A DNA stretch of 64,000 nt, taken from NCBI RefSeq assembly GCF_003018255.1, contig NZ_CP027440.1; one strand, given 5' to 3'. The translations under genes were made by a program, and so were the position numbers. The stretch comes from Escherichia coli (GTDB lineage Bacteria > Pseudomonadota > Gammaproteobacteria > Enterobacterales > Enterobacteriaceae). Positions 4,070 through 62,705 of the stretch are shown in pieces. The notes beneath the pieces were generated by a model. The model saw only the letters and a list, made by a program, of their open reading frames with translations, was not told the origin of the DNA and ran no database searches. How positions within the stretch are numbered: the first letter of the stretch is position 1; every line of letters starts with the position of its first letter.

Positions 4070-5168
4070 TCATAACCCTGCTTTCAAACTTGCTTCGATA
4101 AATTGATCCAGGCTGCCGTCCAGCACGGCCTGCGTGTTACGGGTTTCTACCCCGGTACGCAGATCTTTAATGCGGGAGTCATCAAGGACATAAGAACGAA
4201 TCTGGCTGCCCCAGCCGATGTCGGATTTGTTATCTTCCATCGCCTGCTTCTCGGCATTTTTCTTCTGCATCTCCAGTTCATAAAGCTTCGCTTTCATCTG
4301 CTTCATGGCCTGGTCTTTGTTCTTGTGCTGGGAACGGTCGTTCTGGCACTGGGTCACGATCCCAGTTGGGATGTGAGTAATACGCACCGCAGATTCGGTA
4401 CGGTTAACGTGCTGACCGCCCGCGCCGGACGCGCGATAAACGTCAATGCGCAGATCCGCCGGGTTGATTTCGATATCAATATCATCATCAACTTCCGGGT
4501 AAACAAACGCAGAGCTGAACGACGTGTGGCGACGACCGCCGGAGTCAAACGGGCTCTTACGCACCAGGCGGTGAACGCCAGTTTCTGTACGCAGCCAGCC
4601 GTAAGCGTAATCGCCGGAGATTTTGATCGTCACGGATTTAATACCCGCCACTTCACCTTCCGACTCTTCGATGATTTCAGTTTTGAAACCACGCGATTCT
4701 GCCCAGCGCAGATACATACGCTCAAGCATGCTCGCCCAGTCCTGTGCTTCCGTACCGCCAGACCCCGCCTGAATATCGAGGTAGCAGTCGGCGCTGTCAT
4801 ATTCGCCAGAGAACATACGGCGGAACTCAAGCTGCGCCAGTTTTTCTTCCAGAGCGTCGAGTTCAGCAACGGCTTCGTTAAAGGTTTCTTCGTCGTCAGC
4901 TTCTACAGCCAGTTCCAGCAGACCAGAAACATCTTCCAGCCCCTGTTTCATTTGGTCGAGGGTATCGACAACGGCTTCGAGAGAGGAACGCTCTTTACCC
5001 AGCGCCTGTGCGCGTTCGGGTTCGTTCCAGACATCCGGCTGTTCCAGCTCGGCGTTTACTTCTTCCAGACGCTCTTTCTTGGCGTCATAGTCAAAGATAC
5101 CCCCTAAGAACGTCGGAGCGTTCCGTGAGGTCCTGAATGCGATTATTTACCGGATTAATTTCAAACAT
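4070..5168 (-). CDS. prfB: Peptide chain release factor 2 (365 aa) with programmed +1 ribosomal frameshift
   Basis: ATG at 5168; 25 codons in frame 0 end in CTT followed by in-frame TGA (plus-strand 5091-5096), with an AGGGGG SD-like element just upstream; the +1 frame continues to the stop at 4070; track ORF 4070-4951 is the downstream part. Confidence 0.9.
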
Positions 5169-9301: not shown

Positions 9302-9968
<667 letters not shown>

Positions 9969-20204: not shown

Positions 20205-21383
20205 TCAACGCGCCACCCACCCGAGGGTGCGCTGCGCCAGCACATCGCGTGCTGGGGTGAATAATTCCATTGCCATCAGCCCGATGTTGCGCCCGACAAC
20301 CAGCGGCCCCCAACGGTTGGCAAAAAGATGTACAAGGCTGTCCGTGACGCCGATGGTTGCTTCGCGATCGCGCTGTCGACGCTGCTGATAACGGCACAAT
20401 ACGCCGTAATCACCCATGTCTTCTCCGCGCTCCTGCGCCTGAGTCAGGGTTTCCGCAAGGCTCATGACATCTCGCATACCGAGGTTGAACCCTTGCCCGG
20501 CAATCGGGTGCAGAGTTTGCGCCGCATTGCCCACCAGCACGGTACGATGGGTAATAGGTCTGGCGGCGCGGGTTAACGCCAGCGGATAAGCACTGCGTTT
20601 ACCAGCGTGGGTAATTTTCCCAAGTCGCCAACCAAAGGCCGACTGGAGTTCACGGCAAAACTTCTCGTCGCTCCAAGACAGTACCTCTTCGCGCCGTTCC
20701 AGTGGATGACACCAGACCAGCGAACAGCGTCCGTCAGACATCGGCAACATCGCCAGCGGGCCATATTGTGTAAAGCGTTCAAAAGCGCGCCCTTCATGCG
20801 CAACGGAAGTCGCAACGTTGGCAATCACAGCCAGTTGTTCGTAAGGCTCCTGCTGCCAGTCAACGCCGCACACGGTGGCTAACGCTGAATGGGTGCCATC
20901 AGCGGCTACCAGCACGCAGCCCGTCAGCGTCTCGCCACTCTCCAGCGTCACTTCAACGTGACTCTGAGTACGGGCAACGTTAGCCACGCGATCAGGACAA
21001 TGCAGCGTTACGCCAGGTGCTTTGCGCAGCAATGCAAACAGCCGTTGCCCGACATTATGCAATTCGACAACCTGCCCCAGCGCCGCCAGTTGGTAATCTT
21101 CTGCGGCGAGGGTGACGAATCCGGCATGACCACGATCGCTGACATGCACGGTAGTGATGGCGGTTGCGCAATCCGCCAGAGATTGCCAGACGCCGATGCG
21201 CGCCAGTTGCTGACAGGTACCCGCCGCCAGCGCTATCGCTCGTCCATCAAAGCCCGGATGAGCATGTGACTCTGGCGCAGTCGCTTCAATCAAATGTACC
21301 GGCAGCGCCCCGTGACTTAACCGGGAAATAGCCAGCGCCAGCGTCGCGCCCGCCATGCCGCCACCGACGATGATTACGCTCAT
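20205..21383 (-). CDS. ubiH: 2-octaprenyl-6-methoxyphenol hydroxylase (392 aa)
   Basis: ORF 20205-21383; FAD monooxygenase; start overlaps the pepP stop (ATGA). Confidence 0.85.
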   Translation of the reverse strand: MSVIIVGGGMAGATLALAISRLSHGALPVHLIEATAPESHAHPGFDGRAIALAAGTCQQLARIGVWQSLADCATAITTVHVSDRGHAGFVTLAAEDYQLAALGQVVELHNVGQRLFALLRKAPGVTLHCPDRVANVARTQSHVEVTLESGETLTGCVLVAADGTHSALATVCGVDWQQEPYEQLAVIANVATSVAHEGRAFERFTQYGPLAMLPMSDGRCSLVWCHPLERREEVLSWSDEKFCRELQSAFGWRLGKITHAGKRSAYPLALTRAARPITHRTVLVGNAAQTLHPIAGQGFNLGMRDVMSLAETLTQAQERGEDMGDYGVLCRYQQRRQRDREATIGVTDSLVHLFANRWGPLVVGRNIGLMAMELFTPARDVLAQRTLGWVAR

Positions 21384-22705
21384 TGCTTTCTCGCAGCAGC
21401 CATCAACGCTTCGATTTCTTCCGGCTTTTTCACCACGCTGGCGGTGAGGTTTTCGTTGCAGGTTTCGGTAATCACAATGTCGTCTTCAATACGAATGCCG
21501 ATACCGCGATATTGTTCTGGCACATCCGCATCCGGCGCGATATACAGACCAGGCTCTACGGTCAGTACCATCCCCGGTTCCAGAATGCGCGAGCGATCCT
21601 GACCATAAACGCCAACGTCATGGACATCCAGTCCTAACCAGTGGCTAAGGCCATGCATAAAGAAAGGACGATGGGCGTTCTGAGCGATCAGTTCATCAAC
21701 ATCACCCTTCAGGATGCCGAGTTTTACCAGGCCGCTAACCATGATACGCACCACTTCACCAGTGACTTCCTGCATGGAAGTTCCCGGACGATACAGGCGC
21801 AGGCTGGTTTCAAGAGACTCCAGCACAATGTCATAGATTTCACGCTGAGCCTGAGTGAATTTGCCGTTGACCGGGAAGGTGCGGGTAATGTCGCCAGCGT
21901 AACCTTTGTATTCACAACCCGCGTCAATCAACACCAGATCACCGTCACGCAGTTCACACTCGTTTTCGGTGTAGTGCAAAATGCAGCCGTTTTCACCGCT
22001 GCCAACAATGGTGTTATAGGAAGGGTAACGCGCACCGTGGCGGTTAAACTCGTGGTGAATTTCGCCTTCCAGATGGTACTCGAACATCCCCGGACGGCAT
22101 TTTTCCATCGCCCGGGTATGCGCCAGTGCGGTGATTTCACCCGCGCGGCGAAGTACGGCAATCTCTTCTGGTGATTTGAACAGGCGCATTTCATGAACAA
22201 CAGGACGCCAGTCGATCATCGTAGCCGGGGCAGTGAGATTCTGTCGCGAGCCTTTACGCAGCTTTTCCAGCGCGCTGTTCACGATTTCATCAGCATAGGT
22301 ATATTCGCCCTGAGCGTGATAAACCACATCCAGACCATTAAGCAGTTGATAAAGTTGCTGATTGATTTCGCTGAATGCCAGTGCGCGGTCAACGCCCAGT
22401 TTCTCTGGCGCGGCATCCTGGCCTAAGCGACGACCAAACCAGATCTCTGCCGTCAGGTCGCGAACGCGGTTAAACAAAACGCTGTGGTTATGAGTGTCGT
22501 CGCTTTTAATCAGCACCAGCACCGCTTCCGGTTCGTTAAAGCCGGTGAAGTACCAGAAGTCACTGTTCTGACGATAGGGGTATTCGCTGTCGGCGCTACG
22601 TGTTACTTCTGGTGCAGCAAAAATCAGCGCGGCGCTGCCGGGTTGCATTTGCTCCACCAGGGCCTGACGGCGACGCTGAAACTCTTGCCGGGATATCTCA
22701 CTCAT
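21380..22705 (-). CDS. pepP: Xaa-Pro aminopeptidase P (441 aa)
   Basis: ORF 21380-22918 trimmed to the internal ATG (MSEISRQEFQRRRQAL...); M24B metallopeptidase. Confidence 0.85.
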   Translation of the reverse strand: MSEISRQEFQRRRQALVEQMQPGSAALIFAAPEVTRSADSEYPYRQNSDFWYFTGFNEPEAVLVLIKSDDTHNHSVLFNRVRDLTAEIWFGRRLGQDAAPEKLGVDRALAFSEINQQLYQLLNGLDVVYHAQGEYTYADEIVNSALEKLRKGSRQNLTAPATMIDWRPVVHEMRLFKSPEEIAVLRRAGEITALAHTRAMEKCRPGMFEYHLEGEIHHEFNRHGARYPSYNTIVGSGENGCILHYTENECELRDGDLVLIDAGCEYKGYAGDITRTFPVNGKFTQAQREIYDIVLESLETSLRLYRPGTSMQEVTGEVVRIMVSGLVKLGILKGDVDELIAQNAHRPFFMHGLSHWLGLDVHDVGVYGQDRSRILEPGMVLTVEPGLYIAPDADVPEQYRGIGIRIEDDIVITETCNENLTASVVKKPEEIEALMAAARKQ

Positions 22706-23847: not shown

Positions 23848-24033
23848 ATTTCTCTGAGATGTTCGCAAGCGGGCCAGTCCCCTGAGCCGATATTTCATAC
23901 CACAAGAATGTGGCGCTCCGCGGTTGGTGAGCATGCTCGGTCCGTCCGAGAAGCCTTAAAACTGCGACGACACATTCACCTTGAACCAAGGGTTCAAGGG
24001 TTACAGCCTGCGGCGGCATCTCGGAGATTCCCT
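23848..24033 (+). ncRNA. ssrS: 6S RNA, RNA polymerase sigma-70 holoenzyme regulator
   Basis: Sequence ATTTCTCTGAGATGTTCGCAAGCGGGCCAGTCCCCTGAGCCGATATTTCATACCACAAGAATGTGGCGCTCCGCGG... matches E. coli 6S RNA as I recall it; lies between zapA and ygfA. Confidence 0.9.
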
Positions 24034-24654: not shown

Positions 24655-24711
24655 GGGCGACACACCTGCATCGCCCTGATTGACATCGTTGATTCTTTAA
24701 CCTAATTTAGT

Positions 24712-24856
24712 GAGTAAGGGTAAGGGAGGATGACTCCTCCCCTGAGACTGACTGTTAATAAGCTGGGAAACTTATGAGTAACAGTACAATCAGTATGATG
24801 ACAAGTCGCATCATAACCCTTCTCCTTCAAGCCCTCGCTTCGGTGAGGGCTTTACC
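24712..24856 (+). ncRNA. sibC: SibC-type antisense sRNA (type I antitoxin); boundaries approximate
   Basis: + strand region fully antisense to ibsC, ending in the hairpin GCCCTC-gcttcggt-GAGGGC followed by TTT; K-12 has sibC/ibsC between ygfA and serA. Confidence 0.5.
24755..24814 (-). CDS. ibsC: Type I toxin IbsC, 19-aa hydrophobic peptide
   Basis: Minus-strand ORF read from sequence: ATGATGCGACTTGTCATCATACTGATTGTACTGTTACTCATAAGTTTCCCAGCTTATTAA = MMRLVIILIVLLLISFPAY; GGAGAAGGG SD upstream. Confidence 0.7.
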   Translation of the reverse strand: MMRLVIILIVLLLISFPAY

Positions 24857-28668: not shown

Positions 28669-30813
28669 ATGTCTAAGGTGCAGGAGTGGCAACAGCTTGC
28701 CAACAAGGAATTGAGCCGTCGGGAGAAAACTGTCGACTCGCTGGTTCAGCAAACCGCGGAAGGGATCGCCATCAAGCCGCTGTATACCGAAGCCGATCTC
28801 GATAATCTGGAGGTGACAGGTACCCTTCCTGGTTTGCCTCCCTACGTTCGTGGCCCGCGTGCCACTATGTATACCGCCCAACCGTGGACCATCCGTCAGT
28901 ATGCTGGTTTTTCAACAGCAAAAGAGTCCAACGCTTTTTATCGCCGTAACCTGGCCGCCGGGCAAAAAGGTCTTTCCGTTGCGTTTGACCTTGCCACCCA
29001 CCGAGGCTACGACTCCGATAACCCACGCGTGGCGGGCGACGTCGGCAAAGCGGGCGTTGCTATCGACACCGTGGAAGATATGAAAGTCCTGTTCGACCAG
29101 ATCCCGCTGGATAAAATGTCGGTTTCGATGACCATGAATGGCGCAGTACTACCAGTACTGGCGTTTTATATTGTCGCCGCAGAAGAGCAAGGTGTTACAC
29201 CCGATAAACTGACCGGCACCATTCAAAACGATATCCTCAAAGAGTATCTTTGCCGCAACACCTATATTTACCCGCCAAAACCGTCAATGCGTATTATCGC
29301 AGACATCATCGCCTGGTGTTCCGGCAACATGCCGCGATTTAATACCATCAGTATCAGCGGTTACCACATGGGTGAAGCGGGTGCCAACTGCGTGCAGCAG
29401 GTAGCATTTACGCTCGCCGATGGGATTGAGTACATCAAAGCAGCAATCTCCGCCGGGCTGAAAATTGATGACTTCGCTCCTCGTCTGTCGTTCTTCTTCG
29501 GCATTGGCATGGATCTGTTTATGAACGTCGCCATGTTGCGTGCGGCACGTTATTTATGGAGCGAAGCGGTCAGTGGATTTGGCGCACAGGATCCGAAATC
29601 ACTGGCGCTGCGTACCCACTGCCAGACCTCAGGCTGGAGCCTGACTGAACAGGATCCGTATAACAACGTTATCCGCACCACCATTGAAGCACTGGCTGCA
29701 ACGCTGGGCGGTACTCAGTCACTGCATACCAACGCCTTTGATGAAGCGCTTGGTTTGCCTACCGATTTCTCAGCACGCATTGCCCGCAATACCCAGATCA
29801 TCATTCAGGAAGAATCAGAACTCTGCCGCACCGTCGATCCACTGGCCGGATCCTATTACATTGAGTCGCTGACCGATCAAATCGTCAAACAAGCCAGAGC
29901 TATTATCCAACAGATCGACGAAGCCGGTGGCATGGCGAAAGCGATCGAAGCAGGTCTGCCAAAACGAATGATCGAAGAGGCCTCAGCGCGCGAACAGTCG
30001 CTGATCGACCAGGGCAAGCGTGTCATCGTTGGTGTCAACAAGTACAAACTGGATCACGAAGACGAAACCGATGTACTTGAGATCGACAACGTGATGGTGC
30101 GTAACGAGCAAATTGCTTCGCTGGAACGCATTCGCGCCACCCGTGATGATGCCGCCGTAACCGCCGCGTTGAACGCCCTGACTCACGCCGCACAGCATAA
30201 CGAAAACCTGCTGGCTGCCGCTGTTAATGCTGCTCGCGTTCGCGCCACCCTGGGTGAAATTTCCGATGCGCTGGAAGCCGCTTTCGACCGTTATCTGGTG
30301 CCAAGCCAGTGTGTTACCGGCGTGATTGCGCAAAGCTATCATCAGTCTGAGAAATCGGCCGCCGAGTTCGATGCCATTGTTGCGCAAACGGAGCAGTTCC
30401 TTGCCGACAATGGTCGTCGCCCGCGCATTCTGATCGCCAAAATGGGCCAGGATGGGCACGATCGCGGCGCGAAAGTGATCGCCAGCGCCTATTCCGATCT
30501 CGGTTTCGACGTAGATTTAAGCCCGATGTTCTCTACACCTGAAGAGATCGCCCGCCTGGCCGTAGAAAACGACGTTCACGTAGTGGGCGCATCCTCACTG
30601 GCTGCCGGTCATAAAACGCTGATCCCGGAACTGGTCGAAGCGCTGAAAAAATGGGGACGCAAAGATATCTGCGTGGTCGCGGGTGGCGTCATTCCGCCGC
30701 AGGATTACGCCTTCCTGCAAGAGCGCGGCGTGGCGGCGATTTATGGTCCAGGTACACCTATGCTCGACAGCGTGCGCGACGTACTGAATCTGATAAGCCA
30801 GCATCATGATTAA
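28669..30813 (+). CDS. scpA: Methylmalonyl-CoA mutase, B12-dependent (714 aa)
   Basis: ORF 28648-30813 trimmed to [15 protein letters not shown]...; C-terminal B12-binding region. Confidence 0.9.
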
Positions 30814-32620: not shown

Positions 32621-34099
32621 ATGGAAACTCAGTGGACAAGGATGACCGCCGATGAAGCGGCAGAAATTATCCAGCATAACGACATGGTGGCATTTAGCGG
32701 CTTTACCCCAGCGGGTTCGCCGAAAGCCTTACCCACCGCGATTGCCCGCAGAGCTAACGAACAGCATGAGGCCAAAAAGCCGTATCAAATTCGCCTGCTG
32801 ACGGGGGCGTCAATCAGCGCCGCCGCTGACGATGTACTTTCTGACGCCGATGCTGTTTCCTGGCGTGCGCCATATCAAACATCGTCCGGTTTACGTAAAA
32901 AGATCAATCAGGGCGCGGTGAGTTTCGTTGACCTGCATTTGAGCGAAGTGGCGCAAATGGTCAATTACGGTTTCTTCGGCGACATTGATGTTGCCGTCAT
33001 CGAAGCATCGGCACTGGCACCGGATGGTCGAGTCTGGTTAACCAGCGGGATCGGTAATGCGCCGACCTGGCTGCTGCGAGCGAAGAAAGTGATCATTGAA
33101 CTTAATCACTATCACGATCCGCGCGTTGCAGAACTGGCAGATATTGTGATTCCTGGCGCGCCACCGCGGCGCAATAGCGTGTCGATCTTCCATGCAATGG
33201 ATCGCGTCGGTACCCGCTATGTGCAAATCGATCCGAAAAAGATTGTCGCCGTCGTGGAAACCAACTTGCCTGACGCCGGTAATATGCTGGATAAGCAAAA
33301 TCCCATGTGCCAGCAGATTGCCGATAACGTGGTCACGTTCTTGTTGCAGGAAATGGCGCATGGGCGTATTCCGCCGGAATTTCTGCCGCTGCAAAGTGGC
33401 GTAGGCAACATCAATAATGCGGTAATGGCGCGTCTGGGGGAAAATCCGGAAATTCCTCCGTTTATGATGTATTCGGAAGTGCTACAGGAATCGGTGGTGC
33501 ATTTACTGGAAACGGGCAAAATCAGCGGGGCCAGCGCCTCCAGCCTGACTATCTCGGCCGATTCCCTGCGCAAGATTTACGACAATATGGATTACTTTGC
33601 CAGCCGCATTGTGTTGCGTCCGCAGGAGATTTCCAATAACCCGGAAATCATCCGTCGTCTGGGCGTCATCGCTCTGAACGTCGGCCTGGAGTTTGATATT
33701 TACGGGCATGCCAACTCAACGCACGTAGCCGGGGTCGATCTGATGAACGGCATCGGTGGCAGCGGTGATTTTGAACGCAACGCGTATCTGTCGATCTTTA
33801 TGGCCCCGTCGATTGCTAAAGAAGGCAAGATCTCAACCGTCGTGCCAATGTGCAGCCATGTTGATCACAGCGAACACAGCGTCAAAGTGATCATCACCGA
33901 ACAAGGCATCGCCGATCTGCGTGGTCTTTCCCCGCTTCAACGCGCCCGCACTATCATTGATAATTGTGCACATCCTATGTATCGGGATTATCTGCATCGC
34001 TATCTGGAAAATGCGCCCGGCGGACATATTCACCACGATCTTAGCCACGTCTTCGACTTACACCGTAATTTAATTGCAACCGGCTCGATGCTAGGTTAA
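32621..34099 (+). CDS. scpC: Propionyl-CoA:succinate CoA-transferase (492 aa)
   Basis: ORF 32621-34099; last gene of the sbm operon. Confidence 0.85.
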   Translation: METQWTRMTADEAAEIIQHNDMVAFSGFTPAGSPKALPTAIARRANEQHEAKKPYQIRLLTGASISAAADDVLSDADAVSWRAPYQTSSGLRKKINQGAVSFVDLHLSEVAQMVNYGFFGDIDVAVIEASALAPDGRVWLTSGIGNAPTWLLRAKKVIIELNHYHDPRVAELADIVIPGAPPRRNSVSIFHAMDRVGTRYVQIDPKKIVAVVETNLPDAGNMLDKQNPMCQQIADNVVTFLLQEMAHGRIPPEFLPLQSGVGNINNAVMARLGENPEIPPFMMYSEVLQESVVHLLETGKISGASASSLTISADSLRKIYDNMDYFASRIVLRPQEISNNPEIIRRLGVIALNVGLEFDIYGHANSTHVAGVDLMNGIGGSGDFERNAYLSIFMAPSIAKEGKISTVVPMCSHVDHSEHSVKVIITEQGIADLRGLSPLQRARTIIDNCAHPMYRDYLHRYLENAPGGHIHHDLSHVFDLHRNLIATGSMLG

Positions 34100-41627: not shown

Positions 41628-42341
41628 TCAGCTTTTGAAGTGATATCTGCCTTCTTCGGTCATCTCTAATATCAGATTGGCCTGACGACTATTCACCAGC
41701 ACACGCTCGACATTGGGACCATCGGTTCGGGCATAAAAAGCTTCGGCTTCTTGCCGCGATAATCCTCCCGCAATTTTACGACTAATCAAGCGCTCCCGCA
41801 GAATTTGAGCAGGTGCATGAATAAAAATAGAAAAATCGCAGAAAGATGCCAACTCCTGCCACTTTTCATCATCCAGTAATAGCCAGTTTCCTTCGACGAT
41901 GACGAGGGGTGCGGTAACGTGCAGCGCATCTTCAACAGGATCATGCTTTTGTCGATCGTACTGCGGCCACGTACAATCCCCTTCCACAACCCGGCACAGA
42001 TTTTCCGCCAGTTTCGCAACGTTGAATGTCTCTGGTGCGCCTTTGAAGGGGCGCAATTGATGCGCATCCAGCCAGCTATTGTAATGGTGAAAACCATCCA
42101 TCGGCAGCGTCTGTATAGCGGGTAGTTCCGGGTCTTGTTGCGCGAGATATTCCCAGAAGGTGGTTAGGGTAGATTTACCCGTCCCCGGCGGAGCGCAAAG
42201 AAAAACCACCGTACGCCGCTGCGGATTTACCGTCTGTAAGGCCGCCAACATGCGCAGCAACGGTTTATGTACATTTTCTATCTCATCAACATGGTACTGT
42301 GCTTGTACCTTCAGACCATTCACCGTTAATTCAATTTTCAC
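41628..42341 (-). CDS. yggC: P-loop nucleoside/nucleotide-kinase-like protein YggC (237 aa)
   Basis: ORF 41628-42341; Walker A GTGKST; apparent GTG start overlapping the yggD stop. Confidence 0.75.
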   Translation of the reverse strand: MKIELTVNGLKVQAQYHVDEIENVHKPLLRMLAALQTVNPQRRTVVFLCAPPGTGKSTLTTFWEYLAQQDPELPAIQTLPMDGFHHYNSWLDAHQLRPFKGAPETFNVAKLAENLCRVVEGDCTWPQYDRQKHDPVEDALHVTAPLVIVEGNWLLLDDEKWQELASFCDFSIFIHAPAQILRERLISRKIAGGLSRQEAEAFYARTDGPNVERVLVNSRQANLILEMTEEGRYHFKS

Positions 42342-42847
42342 GGCGTTAATTCCTTTAAGGTGGTCGTTACTGCCAGCGTCAGCGCCGTTTTGACCATCCC
42401 GCTAAAACGCGCCTCTGACCAGACGGCGAAATCGGCGAACTTCATCGCTTTCAACGCGTCATAGAGAGTCGCATTGCGGGTTATGCTATTGACGTTGCTT
42501 ATAAAATCCCAGGTCATGTCATCGGCAAATCCGGGCGTTTCATCCTGTTCGTTCAGGTAATGCCAGAACTGGGAAAAATGCGTGATATCGGCGTACAGCC
42601 ATTTATCCATTTTCCCCAGCGCATAAATCAAACGCAGCGCAACATCAATATCGTCAAGCGGGCCGCTTTGGGCGAGTAACGGCTTCACTGCATATTCGAC
42701 GATCTCTTCATCATTATCGACAAACAGCGACGGCAGAAACTGGCGTATCCCCTGGAGCAAAATAGAATGCGCAGTTTTCATAAATGAAAATAAATTGTCC
42801 TGTGCCTCCAGTTGCTCAAGCACATCATCTTCTGTCAGCGTCGCCAT
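42338..42847 (-). CDS. yggD: MtlR-like transcriptional regulator YggD (169 aa)
   Basis: ORF 42338-42847; position between yggC and the yggF remnant. Confidence 0.75.
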   Translation of the reverse strand: MATLTEDDVLEQLEAQDNLFSFMKTAHSILLQGIRQFLPSLFVDNDEEIVEYAVKPLLAQSGPLDDIDVALRLIYALGKMDKWLYADITHFSQFWHYLNEQDETPGFADDMTWDFISNVNSITRNATLYDALKAMKFADFAVWSEARFSGMVKTALTLAVTTTLKELTP

Positions 42848-42868: not shown

Positions 42869-43184
42869 TCAATGCAGGGAGTCTATTATATTACACGTTT
42901 GGTCCGCGCCGCCGATCAGTAATGTCTGCGTCCGCACCCCATTCGCCGTCTGTTGGATACCGTTCACCAACTCGCCGCCCGTCACGCCCGTAGCGCTAAA
43001 GAGGATATCGTTCCCCCTCGCCGATAACCACTCGCCCACGAAAAGCGACGTCGTTTAATGCCTGGCGCATCGCGGTGACCGCCAGGCCATCAATTTTATT
43101 TTTGTCGCCACATCCGGTTTGCGGCCAGGCAGCCAACGCTGCCTGTTCCGTAACGCGAAATAATGGCCACGCCAGGGACATCAT
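42869..43184 (-). pseudogene. yggF: Remnant of class II fructose-1,6-bisphosphatase gene yggF (GlpX family): about 56 N-terminal codons joined out of frame to about 40 C-terminal codons
   Basis: Track ORF 42996-43184 ([20 protein letters not shown]...VVIGEGE) is a GlpX-type N-terminus ending in a premature TAG; the +1 frame of the same DNA continues ...[49 protein letters not shown] to a stop at 42869; only about 0.33 kb remains where a roughly 1-kb gene is expected. Confidence 0.6.
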
Positions 43185-44458
43185 TGCGCGGCCTCCCCGA
43201 TATCAACGCCAAATTGCGCCAGCAGATATTTCTCGGCCTGCTCATTCCAGATGCCGTGCGTTTCCTCAACCAGCCGCGCCAGCTCTTTAAACAGCGGATC
43301 GGTTTTGCCTTTTTCGGCAAAATCGGCAATGGCAGTGAGCGGCATGGTGACGCCGTTATAAATGAGTTTTTTACCGCCGGGGATATCCGGCAGATTGAGC
43401 ACGGTATCAGGCACCGCATCCAGCCCACCGATATGGGTCACCATAAACGACGGCTGCAACTGCCCTGTGGCGCTAAGCGCAATCGCCTCTTTCATGTCGT
43501 CCGTTGAACCGCCGGACGTACCGACGACATGCGTGCTGTTGTAATGGACGTTGTAGAAATTAAACGGCACTTTGAAGTTTTTATCCGTCGGCCCGGCAAA
43601 GAAGTTCAGGCAGCCATCTTCCGCCAGTAATTCATCAGCCATCTCGACGACTGAAGGCACCGCTGCATAGACAAATACGTCATCAAATCCGGCATCATCC
43701 GTCAGCGCCCGCAGCGTCTGGACCGGATCGCTCATCCCTTTGGTATTCATATACACCAGCTCAATGCCTTTACTGGCCGCCAGTTCCACCGGCAGCAGCT
43801 TTTGTACCTGCGCCAGGCGTTTGTCGTCGATATCGACCACCACCACCCGCGACGGTTGTATGCCGCCGTTAATAGCATAATCGATAGCGCCAATGCCCAT
43901 CGGACCAGCACATGCCAGCAGCGCAATATTGCCGCCAGGTTTAACGCCCATGCGATGCTCATAAACATATTGCGTGGTGTGATAATTGGCATGATAAGCG
44001 CCAATAATGCAGCACATAGGCTCTGCCAGCGACGCCGCAGCAAAATAAGAGCCGTGATACGGTAATACGCAGCCCAGGTTAATGGCTATTTCAGGAATAA
44101 TCATATAGGTGGCGTTACCGCCAAAATATTCGTAGCTGTAGCCTGCTGAATATCCGCTTGGTAACCCCATTGCCGGTTGCAATACAAAACGCTGGCCTTT
44201 TTTATATTTGTCGGTGAGATTTTTACCCACTTCGACAATAACCCCGGCGCATTCATGCCCGGTAATGACCGGATGATTTTCTAAATCGTCGGGTACGCGT
44301 TTATGTTCACTACCGAGTAGCGCCGCTTTCCAGGTGGATAAACACACGCTGTCAGAAATCACACTCACCAGCAGTTCATTATCGGTAATTTCTGGCAGTT
44401 CAAATTCGCGCAGACGGACATCCCGCTTGCCATAAATAGCAGCAACTTTGGTTTTCAT
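43181..44458 (-). CDS. yggP: Zinc-binding MDR-family dehydrogenase YggP (425 aa)
   Basis: ORF 43181-44458; N-terminal GroES-like and Rossmann regions. Confidence 0.75.
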
Positions 44459-46708: not shown

Positions 46709-47617
46709 ATGAAAGCACCTGTTTCAATAACCTCATTTCGCCCACAAAAATCTATTGCTATCGTCATTGGCGTGCTTGCCGTGGTTGTGCTGCCATTTCT
46801 CTCGTATTACACCGTTAATGAAGGTGAACGCGGCATTTTGCTGCGCTACGGAAAAATCGTAAAAGTTGCCGAGCCGGGTCTGGGTTTTAAGATCCCTTTT
46901 ATGGAAAGCGTGGAGAAAATTTCCACGCGTAATCAGGCTGTGGTTTATCAGGGATTACAGGCCTACAGCCGCGACCAGCAACCGGCACAAATGACAGTAT
47001 CAGTCAGCTTCCACATTAAACCTTCAGAAGCAGGCGCGGTTTATACCACCTACAACACCATTGAAGCATTAAAAGATCGTCTGATTGTCCGTCAGTTGCC
47101 AACTCAACTGGAGAACGTTTTCGGCCAATATACCGCCATCAGCGCCGTACAGGATCGTACAAAACTGGTTCAGGATCTACAAAATGCAATGCGTAAAGCC
47201 GTTGTTGGCCCGGTGGTGATTGATGGTGTCCAGATTGAAAATATTGATTTTTCTGACGCTTATGAAAAATCGATTGAAGATCGAATGAAAGCAGAAGTCG
47301 CCATTGCCACACGTAAGCAAAATCTGGAAACAGAGAAAATCCAGGCGCAAATAGCGGTAACTCAGGCCCAGGCAGAAGCAGACAGTAAACTGGCGGCAGC
47401 CAAAGCAGAAGCTGAGACTATTCGCGTAAGAGGCGCGGCAGAGGCTGAAACTATTCGTTTAAAAAGTGCGGCTGAAGCAGAAGCGATCCGCCTGCGCGGT
47501 GAAGCTCTGCGGGATAATCCCGGACTTGTTGCCCTCACCACTGCTGAGCGTTGGGACGGTAAGCTACCCGATACCATGATCCCCGGCAGTACAGTTCCGT
47601 TTATCTCTACTAAGTAA
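46709..47617 (+). CDS. SPFH/band-7 (stomatin/prohibitin/flotillin/HflKC-like) membrane protein, 302 aa, stand-alone
   Basis: ORF 46673-47617 trimmed to the ATG at 46709 with AAGGAAG 6 nt upstream; one N-terminal TM helix, SPFH core, C-terminal Ala/Glu-rich tail with tandem AEAETIR-like repeats; not at this position in K-12 as I recall. Confidence 0.8.
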   Translation: MKAPVSITSFRPQKSIAIVIGVLAVVVLPFLSYYTVNEGERGILLRYGKIVKVAEPGLGFKIPFMESVEKISTRNQAVVYQGLQAYSRDQQPAQMTVSVSFHIKPSEAGAVYTTYNTIEALKDRLIVRQLPTQLENVFGQYTAISAVQDRTKLVQDLQNAMRKAVVGPVVIDGVQIENIDFSDAYEKSIEDRMKAEVAIATRKQNLETEKIQAQIAVTQAQAEADSKLAAAKAEAETIRVRGAAEAETIRLKSAAEAEAIRLRGEALRDNPGLVALTTAERWDGKLPDTMIPGSTVPFISTK

Positions 47618-49931: not shown

Positions 49932-50690
49932 ATGAAAATTCGCGCCTTATTGGTAGCAATGAGCGTGGCAACGGTACTGACCGGTTGCCAGAATATGGAC
50001 TCCAACGGACTGCTCTCATCAGGAGCGGAAGCTTTTCAGGCTTACAGTTTGAGTGATGCGCAGGTGAAAACCCTGAGCGATCAGGCATGTCAGGAGATGG
50101 ACAGCAAGGCGACGATTGCGCCAGCCAATAGCGAATACGCTAAACGTCTGACAACTATTGCCAATGCGCTAGGCAACAATATCAACGGTCAGCCGGTGAA
50201 TTACAAAGTGTATATGGCGAAGGATGTGAACGCCTTTGCAATGGCTAACGGCTGTATCCGCGTCTATAGCGGGCTGATGGATATGATGACGGATAACGAA
50301 GTCGAAGCGGTGCTCGGTCACGAAATGGGGCACGTGGCATTAGGCCATGTGAAGAAAGGAATGCAGGTAGCACTTGGTACAAACGCAATTCGCGTTGCGG
50401 CGGCCTCTGCAGGCGGAATTGTCGGCAGTTTGTCACAATCACAACTGGGAGACCTGGGCGAAAAGCTAGTCAATTCGCAATTTACCCAACGTCAGGAATC
50501 AGAGGCCGATGATTACTCCTACGATTTGCTGCGCCAACGCGGTATCAGCCCGGCAGGTCTTGCCACCAGCTTTGAAAAACTGGCGAAACTGGAAGAAGGC
50601 CGCCAAAGCTCAATGTTTGACGACCATCCTGCATCCGCCGAACGCGCCCAGCATATTCGCGATCGTATGAGCGCGGATGGAGTTAAGTAA
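49932..50690 (+). CDS. loiP: M48-family metalloprotease lipoprotein LoiP/YggG (252 aa)
   Basis: ORF 49713-50690 trimmed to MKIRALLVAMSVATVLTGC...; HEMGH zinc motif. Confidence 0.85.
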   Translation: MKIRALLVAMSVATVLTGCQNMDSNGLLSSGAEAFQAYSLSDAQVKTLSDQACQEMDSKATIAPANSEYAKRLTTIANALGNNINGQPVNYKVYMAKDVNAFAMANGCIRVYSGLMDMMTDNEVEAVLGHEMGHVALGHVKKGMQVALGTNAIRVAAASAGGIVGSLSQSQLGDLGEKLVNSQFTQRQESEADDYSYDLLRQRGISPAGLATSFEKLAKLEEGRQSSMFDDHPASAERAQHIRDRMSADGVK

Positions 50691-50706
50691 AGCCAGGTAG
50701 TGCCGA

Positions 50707-50743
<37 letters not shown>

Positions 50744-50780
50744 TTAATGGCACATCACCCGTGCGCCTCTTATCTGGCGC

Positions 50781-51836: not shown

Positions 51837-52568
51837 CTATTTCCGACACGGTGGCGGCGCATAGCCATTGTTATCTGCCGGAAAGGCTTGTCCAGAGCAC
51901 GGCGGCAGCGCGTTTTGCGCCGGGCCTTGTAATTCAAAGGCGGCAAAGCCGATTACACCGGTATTACGCACATCGCCTTGCGCCGAATTGGCTGCGTAGG
52001 AATCAGCAACGTTGGCGAACTGAAAAGCCGCTTCGGTATGTTTATCTTTGCGGAATCCTTTAATCGCTAACGAATCTCCGGCATTCACAATATAGCCGTT
52101 GTTATTCAGCGAACCTTGCTTGCCGTTCAGCACATCCAGGCCATCAACCGTAGCAACGATCTCGTAGTTGGTGTTACGACTGTAATTGCGGACATATAAT
52201 TGATAATTCATTCCTACTCTGGCATGGACAATATAGCGTGGTTCATTATTTGACGAATCATAAACCCGCGTAATAGGTAGAGAATTAAAATTACCATCGC
52301 GAATAGCATATTCAAGTTCGTTAATACGAATGCTATAAACGCGGTCATAGCCGGAAGGAACAGTAGTCGAATAACTAATAACGATCATCTCTGCCGGATC
52401 GCGCCAAGCTCGCTCAGCAGATACGCCCTGAACCGTTGAGTGCACATCCCCACCCCAGGCGGTGCCGACATTGCCTGATGCACTGCTATTATACTGCGCA
52501 TTACTGGAACAACCGGCCAGCAGCACGGCTAATGCTATCAACGCGCTACGTACTTTCCCTTTTTTCAT
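51837..52568 (-). CDS. Lipoprotein of unknown function (243 aa)
   Basis: ORF 51837-52568; signal peptide with lipobox LLAG-C (MKKGKVRSALIALAVLLAGCSSN); GAGGGA SD upstream; Asn/Ser/Tyr/Gly-rich mature region with two C-terminal Cys; not at this position in K-12 as I recall. Confidence 0.75.
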   Translation of the reverse strand: MKKGKVRSALIALAVLLAGCSSNAQYNSSASGNVGTAWGGDVHSTVQGVSAERAWRDPAEMIVISYSTTVPSGYDRVYSIRINELEYAIRDGNFNSLPITRVYDSSNNEPRYIVHARVGMNYQLYVRNYSRNTNYEIVATVDGLDVLNGKQGSLNNNGYIVNAGDSLAIKGFRKDKHTEAAFQFANVADSYAANSAQGDVRNTGVIGFAAFELQGPAQNALPPCSGQAFPADNNGYAPPPCRK

Positions 52569-61725: not shown

Positions 61726-62289
61726 ATGAATTTACAGCATCACTTTCTTATTGCCATGCCTGCTCTCCAGGATCCGATTTTCCGTCGTTCCGTGGTCTAC
61801 ATTTGCGAACATAATACCAATGGTGCAATGGGGATCATCGTCAACAAGCCGCTGGAAAATCTCAAAATTGAAGGGATTCTGGAAAAGCTGAAGATCACGC
61901 CGGAGCCGCGTGATGAATCAATCCGTCTGGATAAACCGGTTATGCTCGGTGGTCCGCTGGCTGAAGATCGCGGGTTTATTTTGCATACTCCGCCCTCTAA
62001 TTTTGCTTCCAGCATTCGCATTTCAGACAACACGGTGATGACCACTTCCCGCGATGTGCTGGAAACGCTCGGCACCGATAAACAACCGTCTGACGTATTG
62101 GTGGCTCTGGGCTATGCCTCCTGGGAGAAAGGTCAACTGGAACAAGAAATTCTTGATAACGCATGGCTAACGGCCCCGGCAGATCTGAATATTCTGTTCA
62201 AAACGCCGATTGCCGACCGCTGGCGCGAGGCGGCAAAACTGATTGGTGTGGATATTCTCACCATGCCTGGTGTGGCAGGGCACGCCTGA
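61726..62289 (+). CDS. yqgE: UPF0301 protein YqgE (187 aa)
   Basis: ORF 61654-62289 trimmed to [14 protein letters not shown]...; stop overlaps the ruvX start (TGATG). Confidence 0.8.
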
Positions 62290-62705
62290 TGAGTGGAACC
62301 TTACTCGCCTTCGACTTCGGCACCAAAAGCATTGGCGTAGCGGTCGGCCAACGCATTACCGGCACCGCTCGTCCTTTGCCTGCAATTAAAGCGCAGGACG
62401 GTACGCCGGACTGGAACATTATCGAGCGTTTACTGAAAGAGTGGCAGCCTGACGAAATCATCGTCGGTTTGCCGCTGAATATGGACGGCACCGAACAGCC
62501 GTTAACCGCCAGAGCGCGTAAATTTGCCAACCGTATTCATGGTCGTTTCGGTGTTGAAGTAAAGCTCCATGACGAGCGTCTTAGCACCGTGGAGGCACGT
62601 TCCGGTCTGTTTGAACAGGGCGGCTATCGGGCGCTCAACAAAGGCAAAGTCGACTCTGCCTCTGCGGTTATTATTCTCGAAAGCTATTTCGAGCAGGGAT
62701 ATTAA
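62289..62705 (+). CDS. ruvX: YqgF/RuvC-like nuclease, pre-16S rRNA processing (138 aa)
   Basis: ORF 62163-62705 trimmed to [21 protein letters not shown]... Confidence 0.85.

What the first reader, a model, noticed from the sequence alone, without database searches (positions are those of the whole stretch)
21378..21385. Overlapping stop/start junctions indicating translational coupling
pepP's stop and ubiH's start share ATGA at 21380-21383. Similar junctions occur at yqgE/ruvX (TGATG at 62287-62291), yggD/yggC (42338-42341) and yggP/yggF (43181-43184). They mark these as co-translated units and constrain start-codon choice.
Basis: seen in the sequence. Interest (0 to 1): 0.15.

Follow-up and report, generated by a model that had tools for sequence, protein, structure and literature searches.

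The report
Ordinary stop/start gene overlaps in operons
Four pairs of neighbouring E. coli genes share a few bases between one gene's stop and the next gene's start, a very common and well-described arrangement, so the finding is real but ordinary.

Summary
The window is E. coli chromosome (uacT to yggR). All four junctions exist at the stated coordinates:
- pepP/ubiH: ATGA at 21380-21383, minus strand.
- yggD(fumE)/yggC: 42338-42341, but GTGA rather than ATGA.
- yggP/yggF: ATGA at 43181-43184, actually ATGATG.
- yqgE/ruvX: TGATG at 62287-62291.

Corrections:
- In this strain yggF is a pseudogene. A 650-bp frameshifting deletion leaves 62 codons.
- ruvX has an in-frame upstream ATG, and K-12 was once annotated with the 180-aa form.

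The motif alone means little. Thirteen of 20 TGA stops in the window read [A/G/T]TGA, but only 3 open a gene.

The pepP/ubiH overlap is kept in 16 of 17 related Enterobacterales loci. ubiH never has a canonical Shine-Dalgarno sequence there. The yqgE/ruvX overlap is kept in 4 of 4 relatives.

Co-transcription is well supported: an IS1 insertion in pepP is polar on ubiH in the literature. Translational coupling is plausible, since 4 of 5 tested E. coli -4 pairs were coupled. It is untested for these pairs, and its mechanism is disputed. The arrangement is already known; about 24% of E. coli same-strand pairs lie within -8 to +6 nt. Interest is low.

The parts
21380..21383 (-). pepP stop (TGA) / ubiH start (ATG) overlap, ATGA, distance -4
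   Evidence: The overlap is conserved at -4 in 15 of 17 Enterobacterales loci and at -1 in one.
21380..22705 (-). pepP (Xaa-Pro aminopeptidase, 441 codons), the upstream gene of the main pair
   Evidence: Pfam AMP_N plus Peptidase_M24. The PDB chain 1a16_A (440 aa) covers residues 2-441, up to the last codon before this TGA.
20205..21383 (-). ubiH (2-octaprenyl-6-methoxyphenol hydroxylase, 392 codons), the downstream gene. It has no canonical Shine-Dalgarno sequence.
   Evidence: Its ATG is the first start after an in-frame stop 35 codons upstream. Pfam FAD_binding_3 starts at residue 2. The N-terminus MSVIIVGGGM is conserved.
62287..62291 (+). yqgE stop (TGA) / ruvX start (ATG) overlap, TGATG, distance -1
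   Evidence: The overlap is retained in Buttiauxella, Pluralibacter and Kosakonia at -1, and in Yokenella as ATGATG.
61726..62289 (+). yqgE (AlgH-like/DUF179, 187 codons), the upstream gene
62289..62705 (+). ruvX/yqgF (138 codons), the downstream gene. The ORF is open upstream to an ATG at 62163.
   Evidence: The Pfam RuvX domain begins at residue 46 of the 180-aa ORF, which is residue 4 of the 138-aa form. The solved structures 1nmn, 1ovq and 1nu0 are of the 138-aa form.
42338..42341 (-). yggD(fumE) stop (TGA) / yggC start (GTG) overlap, GTGA, distance -4
41628..42341 (-). yggC (nucleoside/nucleotide kinase family, 237 codons). It has a GTG start, with AAGGA 9 nt upstream.
42338..42847 (-). 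yggD/fumE (MtlR-family fold, 169 codons), the upstream gene
43179..43184 (-). yggP stop / yggF start junction, ATGATG. ATG at 43184 gives -4 and ATG at 43181 gives -1. A strong GGGGAGG SD lies 7 nt upstream.
43181..44458 (-). yggP (zinc-binding dehydrogenase, 425 codons), the upstream gene
42996..43184 (-). yggF remnant: 62 codons followed by a premature stop. A 650-bp frameshifting deletion has its junction near 43019/43020.
   Evidence: Pfam FBPase_glpX matches only profile positions 2-58 of 307. RefSeq marks the locus as a pseudogene in the near-identical genome.
30806..30813 (+). scpA stop / meaB(argK) start overlap, ATGATTAA, distance -8. meaB has no SD.
9690..9709 (-). sdhE / ygfX 20-nt overlap with a GTG start.

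Best explanation
These are ordinary stop/start overlaps between adjacent genes within operons of the E. coli chromosome: ygfB-pepP-ubiH-ubiI, cmtBA-yggP-yggF-yggD-yggC and yqgE-ruvX.

Shown here: the genes of each pair abut with -4 or -1 geometry. The downstream start is the conserved N-terminus. The arrangement is retained across Enterobacteriaceae.

Shown in the literature: pepP and ubiH share a transcript.

Inferred: a ribosome finishing the upstream gene promotes initiation at the overlapping start. It could do so by re-initiating without leaving the mRNA, or by keeping the start region unfolded for a fresh 30S subunit. This dependence is most likely for ubiH, and also for ruvX and meaB, which lack a canonical Shine-Dalgarno sequence. 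It is least necessary for yggF, which has a strong SD and is a pseudogene in this strain. yggC, with a moderate SD, is intermediate.
For: - Geometry and gene identity.
- ubiH start: it is the first start codon in its ORF. The Pfam FAD_binding_3 domain starts at residue 2. The N-terminus M-S/N-V/I/M-I-I-V/I-G-G-G-M is identical or nearly so in 17 loci, including Moellerella, where the genes do not overlap.
- pepP stop: solved PepP chains run to the last codon before the TGA.
- Conservation: the overlap is -4 in 15 of 17 loci and -1 (TAATG) in one. Meanwhile the PepP C-terminal residues vary (RKQ, RKK, QKA, QQS, SRS, RKS, ART). The last pepP codon always ends in A, as the ATG requires.
- SD strength: ubiH scores -3.0 kcal/mol, against a window gene median of -5.6 and a random-site median of -2.1. 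Its operon neighbours pepP (-9.2, gap +25) and ubiI (-6.1, gap +22) have proper SDs in real spacers. ubiH's SD is weak or non-canonical in all 17 relatives.
- yqgE/ruvX overlap is retained in 4 of 4 other Enterobacteriaceae.
- Literature: IS1 in pepP reduces ubiH expression (PMC4999529). Four of 5 native E. coli -4 pairs were coupled (PMC6728339). Coupling collapses when about 20 nt of spacer is introduced, and -4, -1 and -8 are the commonest distances (PMC10666635).
Against: - No experiment on these particular pairs was found. Supplements of N-terminomics and ribosome-profiling papers either did not mention the genes or were not held.
- bioBF shows that an overlap can coexist with independent initiation.
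- Depleting ribosome recycling factor (RRF) does not change ribosome-density ratios at overlapping pairs. This argues against re-initiation as the general mechanism (PMC7538156).
- Local RNA folding around each junction is no more stable than shuffled sequence (z from -1.5 to +0.85). There is therefore no positive sign of a structure that upstream ribosomes would need to melt.
- Moellerella has a 108-nt pepP-ubiH spacer, so the overlap is not obligatory.
- PepP and UbiH are not known partners, whereas overlapping pairs are enriched for subunits of complexes.
Confidence: 0.75

Rival explanations
1. The overlaps are real but functionally neutral. They would be a by-product of genome compaction and of how easily ATGA or TGATG arises when stops or starts drift. 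Each downstream gene would be initiated de novo by free 30S subunits, independently of upstream translation.
For: - bioBF initiates independently despite a 4-nt overlap and a weak SD.
- RRF depletion leaves ribosome-density ratios at overlapping pairs unchanged, and the authors favour de novo initiation.
- yggF has a strong, well-spaced SD and yggC a usable one.
- Thirteen of 20 TGA stops already carry a potential -4 start by chance.
- Moellerella tolerates a 108-nt spacer.
- The yggP/yggF junction persists unchanged although yggF is dead in about 10% of E. coli genomes.
Against: - ubiH, meaB and ruvX lack a canonical SD, whereas neighbours with true spacers have one.
- The overlap persists across Enterobacteriaceae while the PepP tail residues change.
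- Four of 5 tested E. coli -4 pairs were coupled, and coupling was lost with about 20-nt spacers.
Confidence: 0.2
2. One or more overlaps are annotation artefacts. The true start would lie elsewhere, so the stop and start do not really overlap.
For: - ruvX has an in-frame ATG at 62163, and K-12 was once annotated with the 180-aa form.
- yggC starts with GTG and has a second GTG at codon 7.
- yggF has two adjacent ATGs.
- No N-terminal proteomics data were found for any of these proteins.
Against: - ubiH, yggC, yggF, meaB and ygfX have no in-frame start upstream of the annotated one.
- Pfam domains begin at residue 2 (UbiH, YgfX), residue 3 (YggF) or residue 4 (138-aa RuvX).
- A later ubiH start (Met10) would remove the first strand and part of the GGGMAG dinucleotide-binding motif.
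- The N-termini are conserved across genera.
- The 138-aa RuvX folds and was solved.
- The 42 extra codons of the 180-aa form lie inside yqgE in another frame.
Confidence: 0.05

Closest known systems
Unidirectional gene pairs with -4 (ATGA/GTGA) or -1 (TGATG/TAATG) stop/start overlap, translationally coupled by termination-reinitiation (Huber et al. 2019, PMC6728339; 2023, PMC10666635)
   Same: The geometry is identical: same strand, a 4- or 1-nt overlap, and any SD lying inside the upstream coding region. [quoted passage not shown]
   Different: None of the pairs here was among those tested. PepP/UbiH and YqgE/RuvX are not known subunits of one complex. One downstream gene (yggF) is a pseudogene in this strain.
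trpB-trpA and other classical coupled pairs of E. coli (cited in PMC6728339 and PMC7538156)
   Same: The stop and start overlap or abut within an operon. In those cases downstream translation depends on upstream translation.
   Different: For the classical pairs, dependence was shown genetically with nonsense mutations. Here it is only inferred from sequence.
bioB-bioF of E. coli (PMC6728339)
   Same: A 4-nt overlap with a weak SD, as at pepP/ubiH.
   Different: bioF was initiated de novo with no coupling in the reporter assay. It is the documented counter-example and shows that the inference from overlap is not safe for any single pair.

Membership tests
Short stop/start-overlapping unidirectional gene pairs (-4 / -1 class) | Two adjacent protein-coding genes on the same strand | tested here: met
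   Annotation transfer and ORF checks. Pfam domains were found for all partners. The exception is yggF, which in this window is a 62-codon remnant.
Short stop/start-overlapping unidirectional gene pairs (-4 / -1 class) | The upstream stop codon and the downstream start codon share 4 nt (NTGA) or 1 nt (TGATG/TAATG) | tested here: met
   ATGA 21380-21383, GTGA 42338-42341, ATGA(TG) 43181-43184 and TGATG 62287-62291
Short stop/start-overlapping unidirectional gene pairs (-4 / -1 class) | The overlapping codon is the true start of the downstream protein | tested here: inconclusive
   Supported by ORF boundaries, Pfam domain starts and conserved N-termini. No direct N-terminal or initiation-site data were found. 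Alternatives exist for ruvX (ATG at 62163), yggC (GTG at 42323) and yggF (ATG at 43181).
Translationally coupled gene pair | Both genes lie on one mRNA | not testable with these tools
   Not measured here. For pepP/ubiH the literature reports polarity of IS insertions in pepP on ubiH (PMC4999529). Consensus promoter and terminator scans were at chance level and uninformative.
Translationally coupled gene pair | Blocking translation of the upstream gene lowers translation of the downstream gene at constant mRNA level | not testable with these tools
   This requires reporter or nonsense-mutant experiments. No published test of these pairs was found.
Translationally coupled gene pair, RNA-unfolding type | A stable mRNA structure sequesters the downstream start or SD unless the upstream gene is translated | tested here: not met
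   Local 93-nt folds around all six junctions are no more stable than shuffles (z from -1.48 to +0.85). Long-range pairings were not examined.

The most novel reading that the evidence does not exclude
The SD-less ubiH start, overlapped with pepP throughout Enterobacteriaceae, might reflect a functional tie between the two proteins rather than mere packing. PepP could, for example, be made next to UbiH and associate with it or the Ubi biosynthetic complex. Overlapping pairs in E. coli are 4.5-fold enriched for subunits of complexes, which is the only hint in that direction.
Probability: 0.03. Interest if true: 0.4.

Novelty: already known. Interest (0 to 1): 0.05.

Why it matters
It matters little beyond annotation hygiene. 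The overlaps help fix start codons and define operons. They also predict that mutations or insertions in pepP, yqgE or yggD will have polar or translational effects on ubiH, ruvX (an essential gene, from my own knowledge) or yggC. The most useful outcomes here are corrections:
- One of the four 'units' ends in a pseudogene in this strain.
- One uses GTG, not ATG.
- Two have ambiguous starts.
- The motif alone is not evidence.

Tried and rejected
- Consensus promoter and terminator scans of the three operon regions gave counts at or below the shuffled expectation. They showed no minus-strand promoter-like site inside pepP, so they were uninformative.
- RNA folding of 93-nt windows around six junctions found no structure more stable than shuffles. 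The RNA-unfolding variant of coupling could be neither supported nor excluded.
- I looked for direct evidence on start sites or synthesis rates. Li et al. 2014 (PMC4006352) is not held. The TRAINSPOTTER and Giess et al. supplements do not mention these genes. The supplements of Meydan et al., REPARATION and Saito et al. are not held.
- Literature searches for yqgE/yqgF overlap and for the yggC/D/F/P genes returned nothing.
- An Rfam scan found only 6S RNA and SibC, with nothing at the junctions.
- I considered that the ubiH start might be Met10. I rejected this because the Pfam domain and the conserved N-terminus begin at residues 1-2.
- I considered the 180-aa RuvX form. I rejected it because the family domain starts 45 residues in, and the extension lies within yqgE in another frame.
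Full report
**What the window is.** A 3-kb piece around the finding matches 5,425 of 5,426 complete E. coli genomes. The features under the match are annotated ygfB, pepP, ubiH and ubiI. The whole window aligns at about 99% identity to E. coli JNE23-011. I transferred that genome's RefSeq annotation to window coordinates, and every CDS translated cleanly. The window runs from uacT to yggR.

| Pair | Window coordinates | Coding strand | Junction | Distance |
|---|---|---|---|---|
| pepP / ubiH | 21380-21383 | minus (TCAT on +) | ATGA | -4 |
| yggD(fumE) / yggC | 42338-42341 | minus (TCAC on +) | GTGA | -4 |
| yggP / yggF | 43181-43184 | minus (TCAT on +) | ATGA, in full ATGATG | -4 or -1 |
| yqgE / ruvX | 62287-62291 | plus | TGATG | -1 |

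- For pepP/ubiH, TGA ends pepP and ATG starts ubiH.
- The yggD/yggC start is GTG, not ATG.
- At yggP/yggF, two adjacent in-frame ATGs fit either geometry.
- The yqgE/ruvX coordinates match exactly.

**Chance.** The tetranucleotide itself carries no information. ATGA occurs 575 times and GTGA 541 times in the window. Thirteen of the 20 genes ending in TGA have A, G or T before the stop, which gives a potential -4 start. Only three of these open a gene. Seven stops carry a potential -1 start, and only those of yqgE and (via the ATGATG) yggP open a gene.

The meaningful fact is that real, conserved ORFs begin exactly at the upstream stop. Of 21 same-strand pairs spaced between -20 and +30 nt, three sit at -4 and one at -1 (crude binomial p about 0.008).

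This is the known genome-wide pattern, and the window is not unusual. Seven of 45 same-strand pairs lie within -8 to +6 nt, against 707 of 2,987 (24%) for E. coli as a whole (PMC10666635).

- scpA/meaB(argK): -8, ATGATTAA, 30806-30813.
- sdhE/ygfX: -20, 9690-9709.
- uacT/yqfG: +1.

**Correction on yggF.** Only about 340 nt lie between yggD and yggP in this window. Alignment with an intact yggF (966 nt, APEC O2-211) shows a 650-bp deletion between short imperfect repeats (GAGGGAGA / GAGGGGGA). The deletion shifts the frame and leaves 62 codons before a stop. Pfam matches only positions 2-58 of the 307-position FBPase_glpX profile. RefSeq flags the locus as a pseudogene in the near-identical genome.

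An 80-nt probe across the deletion junction is covered at 80% or more in 557 of 5,426 genomes. These include Nissle 1917 and the type strain ATCC 11775. The ATGA junction is intact, but in this strain it leads into a dead gene.

**Are the overlapping codons the real starts?**
- **ubiH.** Its ATG is the first start after an in-frame stop 35 codons upstream. Pfam FAD_binding_3 begins at residue 2. The N-terminus MSVIIVGGGM is conserved in 17 loci. Starting at Met10 would delete the first strand of the dinucleotide-binding fold.
- **pepP stop.** The pepP end at this TGA agrees with solved PepP chains, which cover residues 2-441.
- **yggC.** Its GTG is the first start in the ORF, but a second GTG lies at codon 7.
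- **ruvX.** Its ATG is not the first start. An in-frame ATG lies 42 codons upstream at 62163, and an early K-12 annotation used that 180-aa form (P0002). The Pfam RuvX domain begins at residue 46 of the long form, which is residue 4 of the 138-aa form. The 138-aa protein is the one solved (1nmn, 1ovq, 1nu0).

So the overlap 'constrains' the start for ubiH. For ruvX, homology fixed the start, not the overlap.

**Related sequences.** A scan of one genome per species with UbiH returned 17 usable Enterobacterales loci.
- The pepP stop overlaps the ubiH start by 4 nt in 15 of them.
- It overlaps by 1 nt (TAATG) in one Citrobacter MAG.
- The two genes are 108 nt apart in Moellerella (Morganellaceae).
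- The PepP tail varies (RKQ, RKK, QKA, QQS, SRS, RKS, ART), while its last codon always ends in A as the ATG requires.

For yqgE/ruvX, loci from Buttiauxella, Pluralibacter and Kosakonia keep the -1 overlap. Yokenella reads ATGATG.

**Ribosome-binding signals.** I scored pairing of positions -21 to -4 with the 16S rRNA 3' end.

| Start site | Score (kcal/mol) | Note |
|---|---|---|
| All genes in window, median | -5.6 | |
| Random sites, median | -2.1 | |
| ubiH | -3.0 | GAGAAAG |
| ruvX | -6.0 | bulged, non-canonical pairing |
| meaB | -0.7 | |
| yggC | -5.6 | AAGGA |
| yggF | -11.0 | GGGGAGG, 7 nt from the ATG |
| pepP | -9.2 | real spacer, +25 nt |
| ubiI | -6.1 | real spacer, +22 nt |

Within the ygfB-pepP-ubiH-ubiI operon, only the overlapped gene lacks an SD. 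That holds in all 17 relatives.

**Mechanism.**
- Shown here: the geometry, the conservation of the overlap and the weak SD.
- Shown by others: pepP and ubiH share a transcript. An IS1 insertion at nt 153 of pepP strongly reduces ubiH expression and gives the ubiH phenotype (PMC4999529).
- Inferred: ribosomes terminating at the pepP UGA promote initiation at the overlapping AUG.

In reporter assays, 4 of 5 native E. coli -4 pairs were coupled and bioBF was not. The SD contribution ranged from essential to none (PMC6728339). Coupling was almost abolished by about 20-nt spacers (PMC10666635).

Against re-initiation as the general route, depletion of ribosome recycling factor did not change density ratios at overlapping pairs. 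The authors favour de novo initiation helped by mRNA melting (PMC7538156). My local folds show no unusually stable structure at any junction (z from -1.48 to +0.85), so the sequence does not decide between the two routes.

I rate coupling as likely for ubiH, plausible for ruvX and meaB, optional for yggC, and moot for yggF.

**Comparison with what is known.** This is the textbook -4/-1 overlap class. The geometric criteria are met. The defining functional criterion, that downstream translation depends on upstream translation, cannot be tested with these tools and has not been published for these pairs. PepP/UbiH and YqgE/RuvX are not known complexes, unlike about 30% of tightly spaced E. coli pairs.

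**Verdict.** Nothing here is new, and interest is very low.

Noticed in passing
window 42869-43184 (deletion junction near 43019/43020): yggF (glpX-like class II fructose-bisphosphatase) carries a 650-bp frameshifting deletion between short imperfect repeats (GAGGGAGA / GAGGGGGA). A 62-codon remnant is left. A junction-spanning 80-mer is covered at 80% or more in 557 of 5,426 complete E. coli genomes, including Nissle 1917 and ATCC 11775.
   Followed up: yes
scpA/meaB(argK) overlap by 8 nt (ATGATTAA), and meaB has no SD. sdhE/ygfX overlap by 20 nt with a GTG start; ygfX matches the Pfam Cpta_toxin family.
   Followed up: partly
window 62163-62288: The ruvX reading frame is open 42 codons upstream to an ATG inside yqgE. 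A 180-aa form labelled 'ORF_o180' from E. coli K-12 still exists in the protein collection (P0002). The Pfam domain and the solved structures support the 138-aa form.
   Followed up: yes
window 34096-34099 and 1826-1829: Two convergent gene pairs overlap by 4 nt at their ends: scpC/srsR and yqfG/yqfH.
   Followed up: no
window 51837-52568 (minus strand): A 243-aa ORF with no Pfam match lies between speB and speA and is annotated as a hypothetical protein. It is present in 3,556 of 5,426 E. coli genomes, so it is an accessory gene.
   Followed up: partly
window 46709-47617 (plus strand): An SPFH/Band 7 (prohibitin family) gene lies between cmtB and tkt. It is present in only 1,830 of 5,426 E. 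coli genomes.
   Followed up: partly
window 23848-24031 and 24680-24830: 6S RNA (ssrS) and the SibC antitoxin RNA, which lies opposite the ibsC toxin ORF (24755-24814), are the only Rfam matches in the window.
   Followed up: no
window 4070-5168 (minus strand): prfB is annotated as a two-piece CDS with its programmed +1 frameshift. It is followed 9 nt later by lysS.
   Followed up: no
L009 and L017, downstream of ubiH (about 3677 onward): In two Citrobacter loci the sequence after the ubiH stop does not continue into the ubiI start region seen in the other Enterobacteriaceae. In those others, ubiI starts 10-22 nt after ubiH.
   Followed up: no
window 50690-50764: The alignment to E. coli JNE23-011 breaks in the loiP-speB intergenic region. 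The window has about 43 nt more than that genome there.
   Followed up: no
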